NCBI GenBank assembly: GCA_034433995.1
Contig: DAOTZU010000169.1
Location: 2,109-66,108, forward strand
Direction of reading: 5' to 3'
DNA: 64,000 nucleotides
Source of the DNA: Anaerolineae bacterium
GTDB lineage: Bacteria; Chloroflexota; Anaerolineae; UBA1429
The position numbers and the translations under genes are program-made. Below the pieces are notes generated by a model, which worked only from the letters and a program-made list of their open reading frames with translations, searched no databases and was not told the DNA's origin. Below are positions 757 through 5,535 of the stretch, piece by piece. The number at the start of each line of letters is the position of its first letter. Position 1 is the stretch's first letter.

Positions 757-1755
757 TCAATCCTTGCGCCGATGGGATAGAGCCGCAGGGTTGGCCACAA
801 ACTCGGGCAGTTCGCCTCTGGCCAGGGCCAACGCGGCGCGCCCCACCCGGCGGCGCAGCGAGGCAAAGGTGGCATCGGCCCAGGACGCTGTGTGGGGCGT
901 GAGCACCACGTTGGGCAACCGACAGAAGGGGTGGTCCTGGCCGATGGGCTCGCTCTCAAACACGTCCAGGCCGGCGCCGGCGATCCAGCCCTCCTGCAGG
1001 GCCCGGATCAGGTCAGCCTCGTTGACCACCGCGCCCCGGCTGGTGTTGATAAAATAGGCGGTGGGCTTCATCCGCCGGAAGAAGGCGGCGTCGATCATCC
1101 CTTTGGTCTGGGGGGTGGCCGGCACGTGGCAAGAGACGTAATCGGCACGTGCGGCCAATTCCTCCAGATCCACGCGCTCCACCCCCGCTTGCGCAAAGAC
1201 CTCCGGGGCCACGTACGGGTCGTAGGCGATGACGCGCATATCCAACACCTGGGCCCGTTTGGCCAGGGCGCGGGCGATGTTGCCAAAGGCGATCAGCCCC
1301 AAGGTTTCGTCGTGGATGGTGCCCATGGGCTCCAAAAGGGCCCGGGCGGCGGCCCAACCCTGCTGGCGCAGGGTGTTATCGAGCCGCACGATCTTTTTGG
1401 CGCAGGCGAGGAGGAGCACCAAGGCGTGGTTGGCCACTTCGGCGATGCAAAAATCGGGGAAATTGGCCACCAGCACGCCATAGTCGCTGGCGGCGTCCAG
1501 GTCAATGGTATCCACACCGATACCATAGCGCACCACACCTTTCAGGCGGGGGGCCTGGGCGAACACCTCGCGGGTGTAGGGCTCACCGTAGCACAGGGCC
1601 ACGTCGGCGTCGCGCACCGCCGCTGCCACCTCCGCCGGCGTCTTGCAAGGGCCGCGCAGGACCAGCTCGATATCCGGCGCGTTCAGCGCCTCCCGCTCTT
1701 CGGGCAGGGGCGCGCCGGGCTGGGCTCCGGTATGAACGACGATCTTTTTGTTCAT
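757..1755 (-). CDS. D-isomer-specific 2-hydroxyacid dehydrogenase (phosphoglycerate dehydrogenase-like, NAD-binding)
   Basis: ORF 757..1845 (-); internal start MNKKIVVHTG at 1755; NAD-binding GxGxxG (FGNIARALAK) and catalytic motifs of D-2-hydroxyacid dehydrogenase family. Confidence 0.8.
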   Translation of the reverse strand: MNKKIVVHTGAQPGAPLPEEREALNAPDIELVLRGPCKTPAEVAAAVRDADVALCYGEPYTREVFAQAPRLKGVVRYGIGVDTIDLDAASDYGVLVANFPDFCIAEVANHALVLLLACAKKIVRLDNTLRQQGWAAARALLEPMGTIHDETLGLIAFGNIARALAKRAQVLDMRVIAYDPYVAPEVFAQAGVERVDLEELAARADYVSCHVPATPQTKGMIDAAFFRRMKPTAYFINTSRGAVVNEADLIRALQEGWIAGAGLDVFESEPIGQDHPFCRLPNVVLTPHTASWADATFASLRRRVGRAALALARGELPEFVANPAALSHRRKD

Positions 1756-2009
1756 GGCACCGTCCTTTCTCCAGGGTTTTGTTTCGCCCTCGGCGAGGCA
1801 AGAGGATGATAAACCGGTTTGGGCATCTGTCAATGCCGGGCGCAAGGGGGCGCGCCAGGTTCCTGGGAGATGCAGTGGACCTGGTTTTGCGCTATAATCG
1901 GGATGCCGCTGCCATCAGCCTGATTTGTCAAAACAGCCGGTCTGCATATATTCTCCAAGAGAATATTCTCGAAATTCGGTTTCCGTTCACGCATGTCAAA
2001 GGGGGAACG

Positions 2010-4301
2010 ATGGACACCACGCGCCTGGTTTTGTTGGGATTGTTGCGGGGTGGCGCCCGCTATGGGTATCAGCTCGGCAAAATGCTCCAAGAGGAGCGCT
2101 ACCGCGATTGGGCCACCGTGCCCACGGCTTCCCTCTACCGCGAGTTGGGGCATCTGGCCGATGAAGGCCTGATCGAGCGGGTGGGCGTGGAGGCCGCCGC
2201 CGGCCGGCCGGCGCGGGTGCTCTATCGTTTGACGGCGGCGGGGGAGGAGGAGTTGAGGCGCCTGCTGCGCGAGGCGTGGAGCGAGATCGCCCCTTGGGGT
2301 TCGCCCCAAGATAGCGCCGTCTTTTTCCTGGAGGCGTTGCCCACCCAGGAGGCAGCGGAGCTTCTGCGGCAACGGTTGCAGCGCCTGGAGGAGGAGGCCG
2401 ACCGTCTGCATCGCCCCGCCCGCGAAGGCCAAACCTCGCCGCTCTTGGAGGCGATCTGGGAGCATGCCCGCCTGCGCTGCCAGAGCGAGATTGAGTGGAC
2501 GCGCGCCCTCTTGGCGCGCCTGGAGGCGGGGGATCTGGCGCCCGAGCCGGCGCTCCCGGCCCAGGCCGCGCAGCCGGCGCCGCGCCCCCCACGGCGCACC
2601 ACGGAGGGGCTGGGCGCCTTTACCTTTGTCCTGCATACCCATCTGCCCTATTGCCGCCTGGCAGGGCGTTGGCCCCACGGCGAAGAATGGATCCATGAGG
2701 CCGCCGCGGAGACATACGTGCCCCTGCTCAACGCCCTGTACGATCTCCGCGAGGAGGGCGTGCCGTACAAACTGACTCTCAGCCTCACCCCCGTCCTCAC
2801 CGAGCAGTTGGCCGATGTGGATATCCAGCAACATTTCATCCTCTATCTGGAGGACGAGATCGAGGCGGCCGAGCTGGATATCCCCCGCTTTGGCGAGGAG
2901 GGACAGCCCCATCTGGAATATTTGGCCACCTTTTATCGCGATTTTTACACCCAGGTGCGCGATGCGTTTCTGCAGCGCTTCTCCGGCGATATCATCGGCG
3001 CCTTTCGTCAGCTCCAGGATGAAGGTTATGTGGAGATCATCACCTCTGCCGCCACCCATGGCTATCTCCCCTTGCTCTCCCGGGATGCTTCCATTTATGG
3101 GCAGTTGCGGGCGGGGGTGGAGAGCTACCGACGGCACTTTGGCCGGGCGCCCAGGGCCATCTGGCTCCCCGAGTGCGCCTATCGCCCGGCCTATCAGGAT
3201 TATGATAACATCGTGCGCCCTGCCCTGGAAGAGTTTCTCGCCCCGCTGGGCCTCACCTGCTTTTTTGTCGAGACCCACGCCATCGAGGGCGGGCGCCCGG
3301 TGGGCAAGGCCGCCGGCGAGGTGGCCATCGGCCCCTATGGGGCCATTCAGCGCCGCTATGTCATCCCCATGGCCGCAGAGCGGGCGCCGGGAGGCACCAC
3401 CTTCTCCGCCTATTATGTGGTGGGCAGCGCCAAAGGCTTGACGGATCCCCCCGTGGCCGTCATCGGGCGCAACAACCGCACCGGCCAACAGGTCTGGTCC
3501 GGCGAATGGGGCTATCCGGGCGATGCGGATTACCGCGAGTTCCACAAAAAAGATCACCAATCCGGCCTGCAATATTGGCGGGTGACGGGTCCGCGGGTGG
3601 ATCTGGGGGATAAAGACTATTACCATCCCGATTGGGCCGCCCACAAGGTGAGCCAACATGCCAACCACTTTGTGGGGTTGGTGGAACAATTGCTGCGGGA
3701 TTATCACGCCCAGAGTGGTCGCTACGGGCTTATCGCCTCCAACTATGATACGGAGCTCTTTGGCCATTGGTGGTTCGAGGGGGTACGCTGGATCCAAGAG
3801 GTCTTGCGTGGCTTGGCGCGCAGCGAGGTGGTGGACCTGGTCACCGCCAGCGAGTACATCAGCCGGCATCCGCCGCAAGAGGTGATGGCCGTGCCGGAGA
3901 GCTCCTGGGGCACCGGCGGCACCCACTGGACCTGGGATAACCCCGATACCCACTGGCTTTGGGAGCCGCTTCATCAGGCCGAGCGCCGCATGGAGGCCCT
4001 GGTGGCAAGTTTCTCCCCCGCGGAGGGCGAGGTTCGCCTGGCCCTCAACCAGGCCGGCCGGGAGCTGTTGCTCCTGCAGGCCAGCGATTGGCCCTTTTTG
4101 ATCACCACCGGCCAGGCCAAACAATACGCGGTGGAGCGTTTTCACGGCCACTTGGAGCGCTTCCATCGCCTGGCCAACTTGTTGGAGCAAGGAGACCTGA
4201 CCGAGGCCGCCCGGCTCGCCGTGGAGCTGTACGAGGTGGACAAAGTCTTCCCAGAGCTGGATTATCGCTGGTTTGCCGCGCGGCAAGGACGGGCAGAATG
4301 A
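2010..4301 (+). CDS. PadR-like winged-HTH domain fused to glycoside hydrolase family 57 (alpha-1,4-glucan branching-enzyme-like)
   Basis: ORF 1779..4301; start chosen at ATG 2010 after GGGGGA RBS. N-terminus has PadR signature (LLGLLRGGARYGYQLGK...SLYRELGHLADEGLIE). From FTFVLHTHLPY onward it is typical GH57. No in-frame start codon exists near the GH57 boundary. Confidence 0.75.
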   Translation: MDTTRLVLLGLLRGGARYGYQLGKMLQEERYRDWATVPTASLYRELGHLADEGLIERVGVEAAAGRPARVLYRLTAAGEEELRRLLREAWSEIAPWGSPQDSAVFFLEALPTQEAAELLRQRLQRLEEEADRLHRPAREGQTSPLLEAIWEHARLRCQSEIEWTRALLARLEAGDLAPEPALPAQAAQPAPRPPRRTTEGLGAFTFVLHTHLPYCRLAGRWPHGEEWIHEAAAETYVPLLNALYDLREEGVPYKLTLSLTPVLTEQLADVDIQQHFILYLEDEIEAAELDIPRFGEEGQPHLEYLATFYRDFYTQVRDAFLQRFSGDIIGAFRQLQDEGYVEIITSAATHGYLPLLSRDASIYGQLRAGVESYRRHFGRAPRAIWLPECAYRPAYQDYDNIVRPALEEFLAPLGLTCFFVETHAIEGGRPVGKAAGEVAIGPYGAIQRRYVIPMAAERAPGGTTFSAYYVVGSAKGLTDPPVAVIGRNNRTGQQVWSGEWGYPGDADYREFHKKDHQSGLQYWRVTGPRVDLGDKDYYHPDWAAHKVSQHANHFVGLVEQLLRDYHAQSGRYGLIASNYDTELFGHWWFEGVRWIQEVLRGLARSEVVDLVTASEYISRHPPQEVMAVPESSWGTGGTHWTWDNPDTHWLWEPLHQAERRMEALVASFSPAEGEVRLALNQAGRELLLLQASDWPFLITTGQAKQYAVERFHGHLERFHRLANLLEQGDLTEAARLAVELYEVDKVFPELDYRWFAARQGRAE

Positions 4302-4384: not shown

Positions 4385-4413
4385 TTGACGCCCGGTGCCG
4401 ACGGCGCTATAGT
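4385..4413 (+). promoter_or_regulatory. sigma70-like promoter TTGACG-N17-TATAGT upstream of GntR-type regulator gene
   Basis: Hexamers with 17-nt spacer about 40 nt upstream of ATG 4450. Confidence 0.35.
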
Positions 4414-4449: not shown

Positions 4450-5535
4450 ATGCCCAAGGCGACGGCAGAACGCGCACAACCTCTGTATCAGCGGGTCATC
4501 CAAGATATCTGCGCCCACATCGAAAGCGGCCAGTGGCGCCCTGGCGACAAGTTGCCCAGCGAGCACGCGCTGTGCGAGCGCTACGGCGTCAGCCAGATTA
4601 CGGTGCGCAGGGCGCTGCGCGAGCTGGCCCAGGCGGGACGGGTTTACAGCCACCACGGTTTGGGCTGGTTCGTCAGCGTGGAGAGGGCGGCCCAGGCTGC
4701 CGAGGTGACCCTGCTCCTCTTTGACCTCAATGAGGGCTATGCTCCCGTGGTGCATGCGTTGGCGCAGGCGTTATACCCCCATGGGGTCGTCTTGCGGTTG
4801 GCCTTGGTGGAAGGACCCGGTGAGGACGAAGCGGAGGCGGTGGCCGGGGCCATCGCCCGGGGCGCCGGCGCGCTGGTGCTGGATGTGACCGGCGAGGAGC
4901 GCCGCCTGATCCAACGGTACCATCGCCTGTTGCGCAACGTGGAGATCCCCGTGCTTTTTTTGCGCCACGAGGTGAACGGACTGGATGTGCCCGCAGCCAT
5001 CTTGGATGAGGCCAGCTGCATGGAACAGCTCACCCGCCATATTCTGGCCTTGGGGCATCAACGGGTGGCCTATGCGGGCAACGATCCTGCCTTGGTGGAG
5101 GGACAGCGGCAATACTGGGGTTTTGCCACCACCCTGTGGGATCATGGATTGGAGCTGCCCTTGGATTGGGTCTTTACCGGCGACCTCGCGGCGGAGCGGG
5201 AGGCGGCCCGTTTCCGCCGCGCCTTCCAAGGTGCCGAGCGACCCACGGCCCTCGTCTGCGCCTCCGCGCTCCAGGCGGCGGAGGCCATGCATCTCTTGCG
5301 CGAGCTGGAACTGCACTGCCCGGAGGACGTGGCCATCGTGGCTCTGGGCGATAGCGCTTTCGCTCCCCTTTTGCCCACGCCCCTCACCACCTTTCGCCTG
5401 GCCCTGGCCGAGCTGGGCCAGGCTGCCGCTCAGTTGCTCCTCGAACTGGTGGCCGGCCATCCTGTTCAAAGCGTTCGCCTCACCGGCGAGCTGGTTGTGC
5501 GCCAAAGCTGTGGTGCCCACGCTGCCCGAACCTAG
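4450..5535 (+). CDS. transcriptional regulator: GntR-type HTH fused to LacI/periplasmic-binding-protein-like sugar-binding domain
   Basis: N-terminal GntR HTH (LPSEHALCERYGVSQITVRRALRELA); C-terminal PBP-like domain; RBS GAAGGTGAGAGG. Confidence 0.75.
   Translation: MPKATAERAQPLYQRVIQDICAHIESGQWRPGDKLPSEHALCERYGVSQITVRRALRELAQAGRVYSHHGLGWFVSVERAAQAAEVTLLLFDLNEGYAPVVHALAQALYPHGVVLRLALVEGPGEDEAEAVAGAIARGAGALVLDVTGEERRLIQRYHRLLRNVEIPVLFLRHEVNGLDVPAAILDEASCMEQLTRHILALGHQRVAYAGNDPALVEGQRQYWGFATTLWDHGLELPLDWVFTGDLAAEREAARFRRAFQGAERPTALVCASALQAAEAMHLLRELELHCPEDVAIVALGDSAFAPLLPTPLTTFRLALAELGQAAAQLLLELVAGHPVQSVRLTGELVVRQSCGAHAART

What the first reader, a model, noticed from the sequence alone, without database searches (positions are those of the whole stretch)
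2010..4301. PadR-type transcription-factor domain fused in frame to a GH57 glucan-branching enzyme
A complete PadR winged-HTH plus dimerisation helix (about 160 aa) and a Pro/Ala-rich linker run into a GH57 catalytic domain that begins exactly at the family's usual N-terminus (FTFVLHTHLPY). No in-frame start codon exists near the junction. A DNA-binding domain on a glycogen-metabolising enzyme is unusual. It may be a trigger enzyme that couples glucan metabolism to gene regulation, or a dimerisation module co-opted for enzyme assembly.
Basis: partly seen in the sequence, partly recalled or inferred. Interest (0 to 1): 0.55.

Follow-up and report, generated by a model that had tools for sequence, protein, structure and literature searches.

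The report
PadR repressor fused to glycogen-branching enzyme
One gene of an uncultured Anaerolineae bacterium joins a complete DNA-binding repressor to an intact glycogen-branching enzyme, and a conserved palindrome on its own promoter suggests the enzyme shuts off its own gene, an arrangement not described before for a glucan enzyme.

Summary
Window 2010-4301 (+) encodes one 763-aa protein with three parts: a complete two-domain PadR subfamily-1 regulator (residues 1-172), a disordered Pro/Ala/Arg linker (173-201), and an intact GH57 alpha-glucan branching enzyme (202-763).

It is not an assembly or frameshift artefact. Two other metagenome assemblies carry the same open frame. At least 51 protein clusters from Anaerolineae/Chloroflexota, 56-72% identical, share the architecture.

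New findings here:
- The three signature DNA-contact residues of PadR are kept (Y20, Y43, R69).
- A palindrome, ATATTC-N7-GAATAT (window 1948-1966), overlaps the predicted -10 box. Close copies lie at the same promoter position in 7 of 16 distinct orthologous loci that keep those residues.
- The palindrome is absent from 4 syntenic loci without the PadR module and from 4 distinct loci of a fused clade that lost Tyr43.
- A GntR-HTH/LacI-type sugar regulator gene always follows.

Best reading: a self-repressing bifunctional enzyme-repressor. Coupling of DNA binding to glucan metabolism is only inferred. I found no description of the architecture in the searchable literature. Novelty: new variant of a known kind. 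Interest 0.6.

The parts
2010..4301 (+). Single gene for the 763-aa PadR-linker-GH57 branching-enzyme fusion (stop codon included)
   Evidence: ORF list, translation, Pfam. At least 51 orthologous protein clusters share the architecture. The same frame is present in L001 and L002.
2010..2282 (+). PadR N-terminal winged helix-turn-helix domain (residues 1-91), with signature DNA-contact residues Y20, Y43 and R69
   Evidence: Pfam PF03551, 44.3 bits. Alignment to B. subtilis PadR. Signature residues Tyr20/Tyr42/Lys67 are taken from PMC5728393. Conservation among 51 fused proteins: Y20 in 49, Y43 in 40, R69 in 47. The AF2 model has helices 3-13, 19-27, 39-51 and 76-91 and a wing at 55-74.
2283..2525 (+). 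PadR C-terminal helical domain (residues 92-172). This is the dimerisation/effector domain in PadR subfamily-1.
   Evidence: The profile matches full-length two-domain PadR structures 5x11, 8jxk, 3l9f and AphA 1yg2. Top Foldseek hits are all subfamily-1 PadR proteins. Helices at 99-104, 112-134 and 144-172.
2526..2612 (+). Pro/Ala/Arg-rich flexible linker (residues 173-201)
   Evidence: AF2 pLDDT is below 50 for residues 179-189. This is the least conserved segment, with mean pairwise identity 0.17, and its length varies among orthologues.
2613..4298 (+). GH57 catalytic domain plus BE_C helical domain (residues 202-763), with catalytic Glu388 and Asp580
   Evidence: Pfam PF03065 and PF09210. 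TK1436 3n8t E 4e-141 and T. thermophilus 3p0b E 2e-121. E388 and D580 align with TK1436 E183 and D354 and are invariant in 80 sequences. NCBIfam branching-enzyme models score 553 and 500 bits.
1948..1966 (.). Candidate operator: perfect palindrome ATATTC-TCCAAGA-GAATAT (extended form TATATTCTC-caa-GAGAATATT, 1946-1966)
   Evidence: It is the only copy in the 64-kb window. Orthologous promoters carry ATATTCC-N5-GGAATAT with 0-3 mismatches at -31 to -34 from the ATG in L084, L086, L089, L090, L091 and L092. In shuffled sequence the chance of 3 or fewer mismatches per locus is 0.017. It is absent upstream of unfused relatives and of the Tyr43-less clade.
1925..1952 (+). Sigma-70-like promoter: TTGTCA, 16-nt spacer, TATATT. 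The -10 hexamer lies inside the palindrome.
   Evidence: Promoter scan, 10 of 12 matches. L086, L089, L090 and L091 have the same layout of TTGACA, 16-17 nt, then a TATA(A/T)T -10 box overlapping the palindrome's left arm.
4450..5535 (+). Conserved downstream partner gene: 361-aa regulator with a GntR-type HTH and a LacI-type periplasmic-binding-protein sugar-sensor domain (the architecture of B. subtilis AraR)
   Evidence: Pfam GntR, Peripla_BP_1 and Peripla_BP_3. It follows the fused gene in every locus where the downstream DNA is held. It has its own promoter-like site at 4385-4413.

Best explanation
The gene encodes a bifunctional protein. The C-terminal 560 residues are a catalytically competent GH57 alpha-1,4-glucan branching enzyme. 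The N-terminal 172 residues are a complete PadR subfamily-1 repressor.

Proposed mechanism (inferred from what is known of PadR-s1 proteins):
1. The PadR module dimerises through its C-terminal helical domain.
2. The dimer places its two winged-helix domains on the palindrome ATATTC-N7-GAATAT, which overlaps the -10 box and the predicted transcription start of its own promoter.
3. The enzyme thereby represses its own synthesis and, where the two genes are co-transcribed, that of the downstream GntR/LacI-type sugar regulator.
4. The 30-residue flexible linker lets the two enzyme domains hang away from the DNA.

Shown here:
- the fusion is real and conserved;
- both modules keep their defining residues;
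- the palindrome is conserved at the promoter, and its presence tracks an intact PadR module.

Inferred only: dimerisation, DNA binding, repression, and any release signal. The release signal could be glucan or maltooligosaccharide binding by the enzyme part pulling the protein off DNA, or a small ligand in the PadR interdomain pocket.
For: The fusion is real:
- The frame is identical in three assemblies.
- At least 51 fused clusters are 56-72% identical.

The PadR module is complete:
- Pfam score is above the cut-off.
- The profile matches B. subtilis PadR over its whole length, E 1.5e-19.
- The AF2 model has pLDDT 89.5, and its top Foldseek hits are all PadR-s1, led by the PadR-DNA complex 5x11.

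DNA-contact residues:
- Tyr20, Tyr42 and Lys67 are the DNA-binding hot spots of B. subtilis PadR (PMC5728393).
- They are present here as Y20, Y43 and R69, and are kept in 49, 40 and 47 of 51 fused proteins.

Operator:
- A perfect palindrome overlaps the -10 hexamer.
- Of 16 distinct orthologous loci with intact signature residues, 7 have it with 0-3 mismatches at a fixed position, against a null of 0.017 per locus.
- These 7 loci are spread over several clades of the tree.
- Some carry paired half-site changes, such as ATAGTC/GACTAT and ATATTAC/GTAATAT.

Link to PadR rather than to the GntR gene:
- Three unfused loci that keep the GntR gene (L003, L107, L108) lack the palindrome.
- Four distinct loci of the clade that replaced Tyr43 by Glu or Gly also lack it.

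The enzyme is intact:
- E388 and D580 are invariant and align to the catalytic pair of TK1436.
Against: - Nothing was measured: no binding, dimerisation or activity data exist.
- Nine of 16 loci with intact signature residues lack a recognisable copy of the palindrome, so the site is not universal. Two of them (L083, L101) have only a 5-mismatch remnant at the same position.
- The downstream GntR/LacI regulator is present in every fused locus and could be the protein that binds the palindrome.
- The correlation rests on few, phylogenetically related loci. Fisher p is about 0.01 if the loci are treated as independent, which they are not.
- The palindrome sequence differs from the published PadR operator core ATGT-N8-ACAT.
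- The Tyr43-less clade keeps the module under purifying selection (dN/dS about 0.2), so DNA binding at this site cannot be its only role.
- No glycogen genes (glgA, glgC, glgP) lie within 7 kb in any locus, so a link to a glucan regulon is not visible.
Confidence: 0.55

Rival explanations
1. The PadR module has been co-opted purely as a dimerisation or scaffolding domain for the branching enzyme and no longer acts on DNA. The promoter palindrome is bound by something else or has no function.
For: PadR subfamily-1 proteins dimerise through the C-terminal domain (PMC5728393). The clade P0049-P0062 lost Tyr43 and the palindrome yet keeps the module, with dN/dS about 0.2 at dS about 1. Nine of 16 loci with intact signature residues have no recognisable palindrome.
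Against: The wHTH half is better conserved than the dimerisation half: mean identity 0.44 against 0.32. The three DNA-contact signature residues are kept in about 80-95% of members. The presence of the palindrome tracks an intact module. The module has been deleted in frame several times without loss of the enzyme (P0046, P0050, P0059), so the enzyme does not need it for assembly.
Confidence: 0.2
2. The palindrome is the operator of the co-transcribed or adjacent GntR-HTH/LacI-type sugar regulator. The PadR module binds other, unidentified sites or a ligand.
For: The GntR/LacI gene follows the fused gene in every locus where the downstream DNA is held. Autoregulation of an operon by its last gene is common (general knowledge).
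Against: Seven distinct loci have the GntR/LacI gene but no functional-looking PadR module: L003, L107, L108, L043, L088, L097 and L098. All seven lack the palindrome. The site has a long, 5-7 bp non-conserved spacer and spans 19-21 bp, which fits wHTH dimers of the PadR/MarR type better than the contiguous GT...AC cores usual for GntR-family operators. That last point is my own knowledge and was not tested.
Confidence: 0.15
3. The inverted repeat acts at the RNA level, as a 5'-UTR hairpin affecting stability or translation, not as a protein-binding DNA site.
For: The compensatory half-site changes would also preserve an RNA stem. In the window, a TATAAT at about 1893 could give a longer leader that contains both arms.
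Against: The stem is weak: -5.9 kcal/mol, z -1.96. In most loci the left arm is itself the -10 hexamer, 16-17 nt after TTGACA, so it would not be transcribed. The half-site sequence itself (ATATTCC) is conserved between distant lineages, not just the pairing.
Confidence: 0.05
4. The fusion is an artefact: a sequencing indel or chimeric assembly joining two adjacent genes.
For: None found. The junction is GC-rich and of low complexity, the kind of place where indels occur.
Against: Three independent assemblies agree with no indels. At least 51 diverged orthologues have the same architecture with linkers of different length and sequence. No stand-alone PadR of this type sits next to unfused GH57 genes in 80 genomes.
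Confidence: 0.02

Closest known systems
Bacillus subtilis PadR (PDB 5x11-5x14) and other PadR subfamily-1 regulators (AphA 1yg2, VanR 5z7b, Rv0047c 8jxk, Rv1176c 8ioi)
   Same: About 175 residues with a wHTH N-terminal domain and a three-helix C-terminal domain. The Tyr/Tyr/basic DNA-contact signature is present. An AT-rich inverted repeat lies in the regulated promoter, with half-site centres about 13 bp apart.
   Different: Here the regulator is not free-standing. It is the N-terminus of a 763-aa enzyme. Identity to solved PadRs is only about 20-24%, and the closest free-standing relatives listed are 29-38% identical over most of the module. The half-site is ATATTC(C), not ATGT. The wing motif is GRPAR. 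The effector is unknown.
GH57 glycogen branching enzymes: Thermococcus kodakarensis TK1436 (3n8t), Pyrococcus horikoshii (5wu7), Thermus thermophilus TT1467 (3p0b/1ufa)
   Same: GH57 catalytic domain plus BE_C helical domain. The catalytic Glu and Asp and the conserved GH57 sequence regions are intact (HTHLPY, WLPECAY, YDTELFGHWW, ASDWPF). E-values are 1e-121 to 1e-141.
   Different: The characterised enzymes have no N-terminal extension. This one carries a 200-residue regulator plus linker. It scores below the NCBIfam equivalog cut-offs: 553 against 1000, and 500 against 920. It has insertions that the model predicts poorly (429-446). Its activity is untested.
Trigger enzymes with their own DNA-binding domain: PutA (RHH + proline dehydrogenase/P5C dehydrogenase), BirA (wHTH + biotin ligase), NadR, archaeal RbkR (riboflavin kinase + wHTH; PMC5397151)
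   Same: One polypeptide combines an active metabolic enzyme with an N-terminal DNA-binding domain, and a likely operator lies at its own or its pathway's promoter.
   Different: No previously described member, in the literature I could search, uses a PadR module or a glycoside-hydrolase-family enzyme acting on a polymer. Control of DNA binding by substrate, which is what defines a trigger enzyme, is not shown here.
Bacillus subtilis AraR-type regulators (GntR HTH + LacI/GalR-type sugar-binding domain), for the downstream partner gene
   Same: The same two-domain architecture.
   Different: The ligand and operator are unknown. Here it is paired with a GH57 gene, not with arabinose genes.

Membership tests
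PadR family, subfamily 1 | PadR-type winged helix-turn-helix domain (Pfam PF03551) above the gathering score | tested here: met
   44.3 bits against a cut-off of 27, residues 8-83
PadR family, subfamily 1 | Two-domain layout of about 170-190 residues: N-terminal wHTH plus multi-helix C-terminal domain. Subfamily 2 has a single C-terminal helix. | tested here: met
   The profile aligns to residues 7-187 of the 188-residue 5x11 chain, E 1.5e-19. AF2 helices at 99-104, 112-134 and 144-172. Top Foldseek hits are all subfamily 1.
PadR family, subfamily 1 | Signature DNA-binding residues Tyr20, Tyr42 and a basic residue at position 67 (B. subtilis PadR numbering; PMC5728393) | tested here: met
   Y20, Y43 and R69 in the window protein. 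Kept in 49, 40 and 47 of 51 fused proteins.
PadR family, subfamily 1 | Binds as a homodimer to an inverted repeat in a target promoter, often its own | tested here: inconclusive
   A conserved palindrome overlaps the -10 box, and its presence correlates with an intact module.
PadR family, subfamily 1 | Effector-induced release from DNA | not testable with these tools
   No effector can be inferred from sequence.
GH57 alpha-1,4-glucan branching enzyme (EC 2.4.1.18) | GH57 catalytic domain followed by the BE_C helical domain | tested here: met
   PF03065 E 3.6e-36 and PF09210 E 5.2e-31. The AF2 model has pLDDT mostly above 90 in this part.
GH57 alpha-1,4-glucan branching enzyme (EC 2.4.1.18) | Catalytic nucleophile Glu and acid/base Asp. 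That these are E183 and D354 in TK1436 is my own knowledge of the literature. | tested here: met
   E388 (WLPECAY) and D580 (YDTELFGHWW) align with TK1436 E183 and D354. Both are invariant in 80 sequences.
GH57 alpha-1,4-glucan branching enzyme (EC 2.4.1.18) | Score above the NCBIfam equivalog cut-offs (Thermococcales or Thermus branching-enzyme models) | tested here: not met
   553.6 bits against a cut-off of 1000, and 500.6 against 920. It belongs to the same family but is not an equivalog of the characterised enzymes.
GH57 alpha-1,4-glucan branching enzyme (EC 2.4.1.18) | Alpha-1,6 branching activity on alpha-glucan | not testable with these tools
   An enzyme assay is needed.
Trigger enzymes (bifunctional enzyme-transcription factors, PutA/BirA type) | Catalytic domain and DNA-binding domain in one polypeptide, both apparently functional | tested here: met
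Trigger enzymes (bifunctional enzyme-transcription factors, PutA/BirA type) | DNA binding is switched by the enzyme's substrate, product or catalytic state | not testable with these tools
   Inference only. No sequence feature speaks to it.

The most novel reading that the evidence does not exclude
The protein is a true trigger enzyme for storage-glucan metabolism. When the GH57 domains engage alpha-glucan (glycogen granules or maltooligosaccharides), the tethered PadR dimer is pulled off its operator or distorted. Transcription of the enzyme and of the downstream sugar regulator would then follow the amount of polymer substrate. This would be a polymer-sensing version of the PutA principle.
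Probability: 0.25. Interest if true: 0.75.

Novelty: new variant of a known kind. Interest (0 to 1): 0.6.

Why it matters
Bacterial glycogen metabolism is known to be controlled by allostery of ADP-glucose pyrophosphorylase and by global regulators. To my knowledge, no enzyme that acts on the polymer itself is known to carry a transcription-factor module.

If the PadR module does repress its own promoter, this family would add a carbohydrate-polymer enzyme to the short list of enzyme-repressor fusions (PutA, BirA, NadR, RbkR).

It would also give a compact, testable system with four features: a 19-bp operator, a 175-residue DNA-binding module, natural in-frame deletion variants, and a natural Tyr43-less clade. 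That system could be used to ask how an enzyme's engagement with an insoluble substrate can be read out at a promoter.

Practically, public annotation names these proteins only as 'branching protein domain-containing' or 'DUF1957' and ignores the regulator half.

Tried and rejected
- The search for related loci with alignments of the N-terminal module alone failed twice because no stretch was conserved enough.
It returned 80 loci, of which only one (L043) is fused. It is therefore useless for taxonomic counts of the fusion, but it served as a control set.
- A hypothesis that the fusion arose from a commonly adjacent padR-GH57 gene pair found no support. No PadR ORF of this type lies within 6 kb of unfused GH57 genes.
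- The profile search of the word-indexed database with the N-terminal module returned only free-standing PadRs and missed the fused proteins. This is a candidate-selection artefact.
- A perfect copy of the palindrome in L023 lies inside a WD40-like coding sequence and is a chance match.
- No conserved motif was found in the intergenic region upstream of the GntR gene.
- dN/dS is informative only inside the Tyr43-less clade. Other pairs are saturated at synonymous sites.
- Literature searches for PadR with GH57, PadR with branching enzyme, and GH57 with DNA-binding fusion gave nothing relevant.
- The 818-aa antisense ORF 1830..4286 was disregarded. It is a shadow ORF typical of GC-rich coding DNA.
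Full report
**1. The observation**

The + strand is open from 1233 to 4298, and the ORF list gives 1779..4301. The likely start is ATG 2010. It is preceded by AAAGGGGGAAC and aligns with the first Met of 47 of 51 fused orthologues. The product is 763 aa.

Pfam finds these domains:

| Domain | Residues | E-value | Note |
|---|---|---|---|
| PadR | 8-83 | 1.9e-11 | 44.3 bits, cut-off 27 |
| Vir_act_alpha_C | 104-172 | 0.071 | weak |
| Glyco_hydro_57 | 205-629 | 3.6e-36 | |
| BE_C | 654-755 | 5.2e-31 | |

Between residues 140 and 232 there is no in-frame ATG or GTG. The two TTG codons there have no ribosome-binding site. The linker, residues 173-202, is AGDLAPEPALPAQAAQPAPRPPRRTTEGLG. The one correction is that the N-terminal part is a whole two-domain PadR protein, not a wHTH plus one helix.

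**2. Not an artefact**

- The identical protein is encoded on two other metagenome assemblies, ENA ERZ27296003 and JGI 3300027515.
- Their DNA differs from the window by 2 and 1 substitutions in 2.8 kb and has no indels. L001 differs at 145 positions over 10.4 kb, so it is an independent strain.
- A search of 5.8 billion proteins returned at least 51 clusters of 739-812 aa with PadR, GH57 and BE_C domains. They are 56-72% identical to the window protein, and where named they come from Anaerolineae/Chloroflexota MAGs.
- Their linkers differ in length and sequence while both flanking modules align.

**3. The two modules**

*PadR module.*
- A profile of residues 1-178 from 28 fused proteins matches B. 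subtilis PadR (5x11) over essentially its whole length, E 1.5e-19. The next matches are Rv0047c, SMU.1604c and AphA, all two-domain 'subfamily-1' PadR proteins.
- An AlphaFold2 model of the module has pLDDT 89.5. By Foldseek its best hits in the PDB are the same proteins, led by the PadR-operator complex.
- The B. subtilis study identifies Tyr20, Tyr42 and Lys67 as the DNA-binding hot spots and family signature (PMC5728393).
- They correspond to Y20, Y43 and R69 here (alignment). They are kept in 49, 40 and 47 of 51 fused proteins.

*Enzyme module.*
- It matches the solved GH57 branching enzymes TK1436, the P. horikoshii enzyme and T. thermophilus TT1467, with E 1e-141 to 1e-121.
- E388 and D580 align to TK1436 E183 and D354 and are invariant in 80 sequences.
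- It scores below NCBI's equivalog cut-offs. It is a family member, not a one-to-one equivalent of the characterised enzymes.

*Full-length model.* pLDDT is 84.8 and pTM 0.79. Both modules are confidently folded, and the linker is disordered (residues 179-189 below pLDDT 50).

*Mean pairwise identity among fused proteins.*

| Segment | Identity |
|---|---|
| wHTH | 0.44 |
| C-terminal PadR domain | 0.32 |
| linker | 0.17 |
| GH57 | 0.72 |
| BE_C | 0.64 |

**4. A conserved palindrome on the promoter**

Upstream of the gene lies a sigma-70-like promoter: TTGTCA (1925), a 16-nt spacer, and TATATT (1947-1952), with 10 of 12 matches. A perfect palindrome, ATATTC-N7-GAATAT, spans 1948-1966. It covers the -10 hexamer and the expected transcription start. 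It is the only copy in the 64-kb window.

I collected upstream regions of fused orthologues from three sources: exact-protein look-ups, a junction-specific DNA pattern scan of metagenomes, and the genome scan. These give 20 distinct fused loci.

- Seven of the 16 loci whose proteins keep the Tyr/Tyr/Arg signature carry ATATTCC-N5-GGAATAT with 0, 0, 0, 1, 2, 2 or 3 mismatches.
- The position is stereotyped: -31 to -34 from the ATG, and -62 in the window, which has a roughly 30-nt longer leader.
- In L086, L089, L090 and L091 the left arm overlaps a TATA(A/T)T -10 box that lies 16-17 nt after TTGACA.
- In shuffled sequence, 3 or fewer mismatches occur in 1.7% of loci and 2 or fewer in 0.2%.
- The seven loci are spread over several branches of the GH57 tree.
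- Some show paired changes in both arms: ATAGTC/GACTAT in L084 and ATATTAC/GTAATAT in L089.
- Two further loci (L083, L101) have 5-mismatch remnants at the same position.
- Seven more loci (L085, L095, L096, L109-L112) have nothing recognisable.

**5. Which protein binds it?**

A 361-aa regulator with a GntR-type HTH and a LacI-type sugar-binding domain follows the fused gene in every locus where the downstream DNA is available. Sometimes it is only 20-70 bp away, sometimes it has its own promoter-like site. It is therefore a rival candidate binder.

Two observations favour the PadR module:

- Syntenic loci whose GH57 gene lacks the PadR module have no palindrome: L003, L107 and L108, which keep the GntR gene, and L106, which does not. 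They also hold no PadR remnant.
- The fused clade P0049-P0062 replaced Tyr43 by Glu or Gly. In B. subtilis PadR the alanine mutant of the equivalent Tyr42 loses more than 100-fold in affinity. The four distinct loci of this clade (L043, L088, L097, L098) keep the GntR gene and lack the palindrome.

Counting loci as independent gives 7 of 11 with the palindrome (the tally before the last four look-ups) against 0 of 7. That is a Fisher p of about 0.01, computed by hand. With those four loci added it is 7 of 16 against 0 of 7 (8 if L106, which has no GntR gene, is also counted). The loci are related, so this is suggestive only.

An RNA hairpin is a weak alternative. The stem is only -5.9 kcal/mol, and the left arm is the -10 box itself.

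**6. Evolution**

- The NJ tree of the GH57 part shows fused proteins as a paraphyletic grade with unfused ones nested inside (no bootstrap).
- Three 'unfused' proteins begin with the PadR N-terminal peptide, followed directly by the end of the linker. P0046 reads MKEVRASRRKPRRTTQGLGAF..., P0050 reads MKEVRTGLAGQGAF..., and P0059 reads MDDLRTEKKGQGAF.... These look like in-frame deletions of the module.
- The fusion is therefore old within this Anaerolineae lineage and has been lost repeatedly.
- The closest free-standing PadR relatives listed are 29-38% identical over most of the module.
- In a search of 1.84 billion representatives, the fused family is one cluster among thousands of free-standing PadR-s1 proteins.
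- In the Tyr43-less clade the PadR part still has dN/dS of about 0.18-0.21, against 0.06-0.07 for GH57, at dS of about 0.9-1.0. The module keeps some function there, perhaps dimerisation or a different DNA specificity.

**7. Mechanism**

Most likely (confidence 0.55), the protein is a self-repressing bifunctional enzyme.

- PadR-s1 proteins dimerise through the C-terminal domain and present two wHTH domains to an inverted repeat (PMC5728393).
- Here that repeat overlaps the -10 box and the transcription start, the classical position for steric repression.
- The 30-residue linker allows the two 560-residue enzyme domains to sit away from the DNA.
- What releases the repressor is unknown. One option is competition between DNA and alpha-glucan for the dimer, which would be a PutA-like trigger mechanism. 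Another is a ligand in the PadR interdomain pocket.
- No glgA, glgC or glgP genes are nearby. Neighbours are GH2, sulfatases, aldo-keto reductases, RecD2 and MFS transporters, so the physiological glucan context is unclear.

**8. Comparison and novelty**

Each module is an ordinary member of its family. The combination is what is unusual. Enzyme-repressor fusions are a known kind (PutA, BirA, NadR, RbkR; and my own knowledge). I found no paper that mentions a PadR-GH57 or PadR-branching-enzyme fusion. A 2024 review of prokaryotic alpha-glucan enzymes does not contain the word PadR in the 300,000 of its 445,374 characters that are held. The proteins exist in public databases under generic names.

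I rate it a new variant of a known kind, with interest 0.6. It is real, conserved and testable, and it comes with a defined candidate operator and natural loss-of-function variants. The regulatory function remains unproven.

Noticed in passing
window 4450-5535 (+); also L003, L043, L083-L086, L088, L095, L098, L103-L105, L107-L112: A regulator of about 360 aa with a GntR-type HTH and a LacI-type sugar-binding domain (AraR-like architecture) always follows the GH57 gene in this lineage, whether fused or not. In the window it has its own promoter-like site, TTGACG-17-TATAGT, at 4385-4413. An aldo-keto reductase gene often comes next (L083, L110-L112).
   Followed up: partly
proteins P0199, P0201, P0207, P0213, P0215, P0228, P0256 (no window coordinates): Among the nearest relatives of the PadR module is a second fusion family of about 380-530 aa: a PadR subfamily-1 N-terminus followed by DUF4388. 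PadR-s1 modules are thus reused as N-terminal modules more than once.
   Followed up: partly
P0046 (L107:5001), P0050 (L106:5001), P0059: These 'unfused' GH57 enzymes start with the PadR N-terminal peptide (MKEVR.. or MDDLR..) joined directly to the end of the linker. They are in-frame deletions of the regulator module and are nested among fused proteins in the tree. L107 has GAGAATATA just before its ATG, possibly a relic of the right half-site.
   Followed up: partly
L043, L087, L088, L097, L098, L100, L102, L105 (proteins P0049-P0062): This fused clade lost the key DNA-contact residue Tyr43 (now Glu or Gly) and the promoter palindrome, but it keeps the PadR module under purifying selection (dN/dS about 0.2). 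Three of these promoters share CGAGTGCTCG after a TAGAAT -10 box.
   Followed up: partly
window 1806-2009: The public gene call for this protein (P0001, 831 aa) starts at ATG 1806, 68 codons upstream of the start shared by the orthologues (2010). That stretch holds the promoter and the palindrome, so the call is probably too long.
   Followed up: yes
window 1830-4286 (-): An 818-aa ORF lies antisense to the whole gene. It is a shadow ORF of the kind common in GC-rich coding DNA, and I treated it as not a gene. It was not searched on its own.
   Followed up: partly
window 757-1755 (-), promoter-like site 1833-1806 (-): A divergently transcribed D-2-hydroxyacid dehydrogenase gene has a strong promoter-like site (TTGACA-16-TATCAT, 11 of 12 matches) in the shared 254-bp intergenic region. 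This neighbour is present in only some orthologous loci (L001, L002, L083).
   Followed up: partly
L023:1491-1509: A perfect match to ATATTC-N7-GAATAT lies inside a WD40-like coding sequence (..NIRLWNIE..) of an unrelated locus. It is a chance match.
   Followed up: yes
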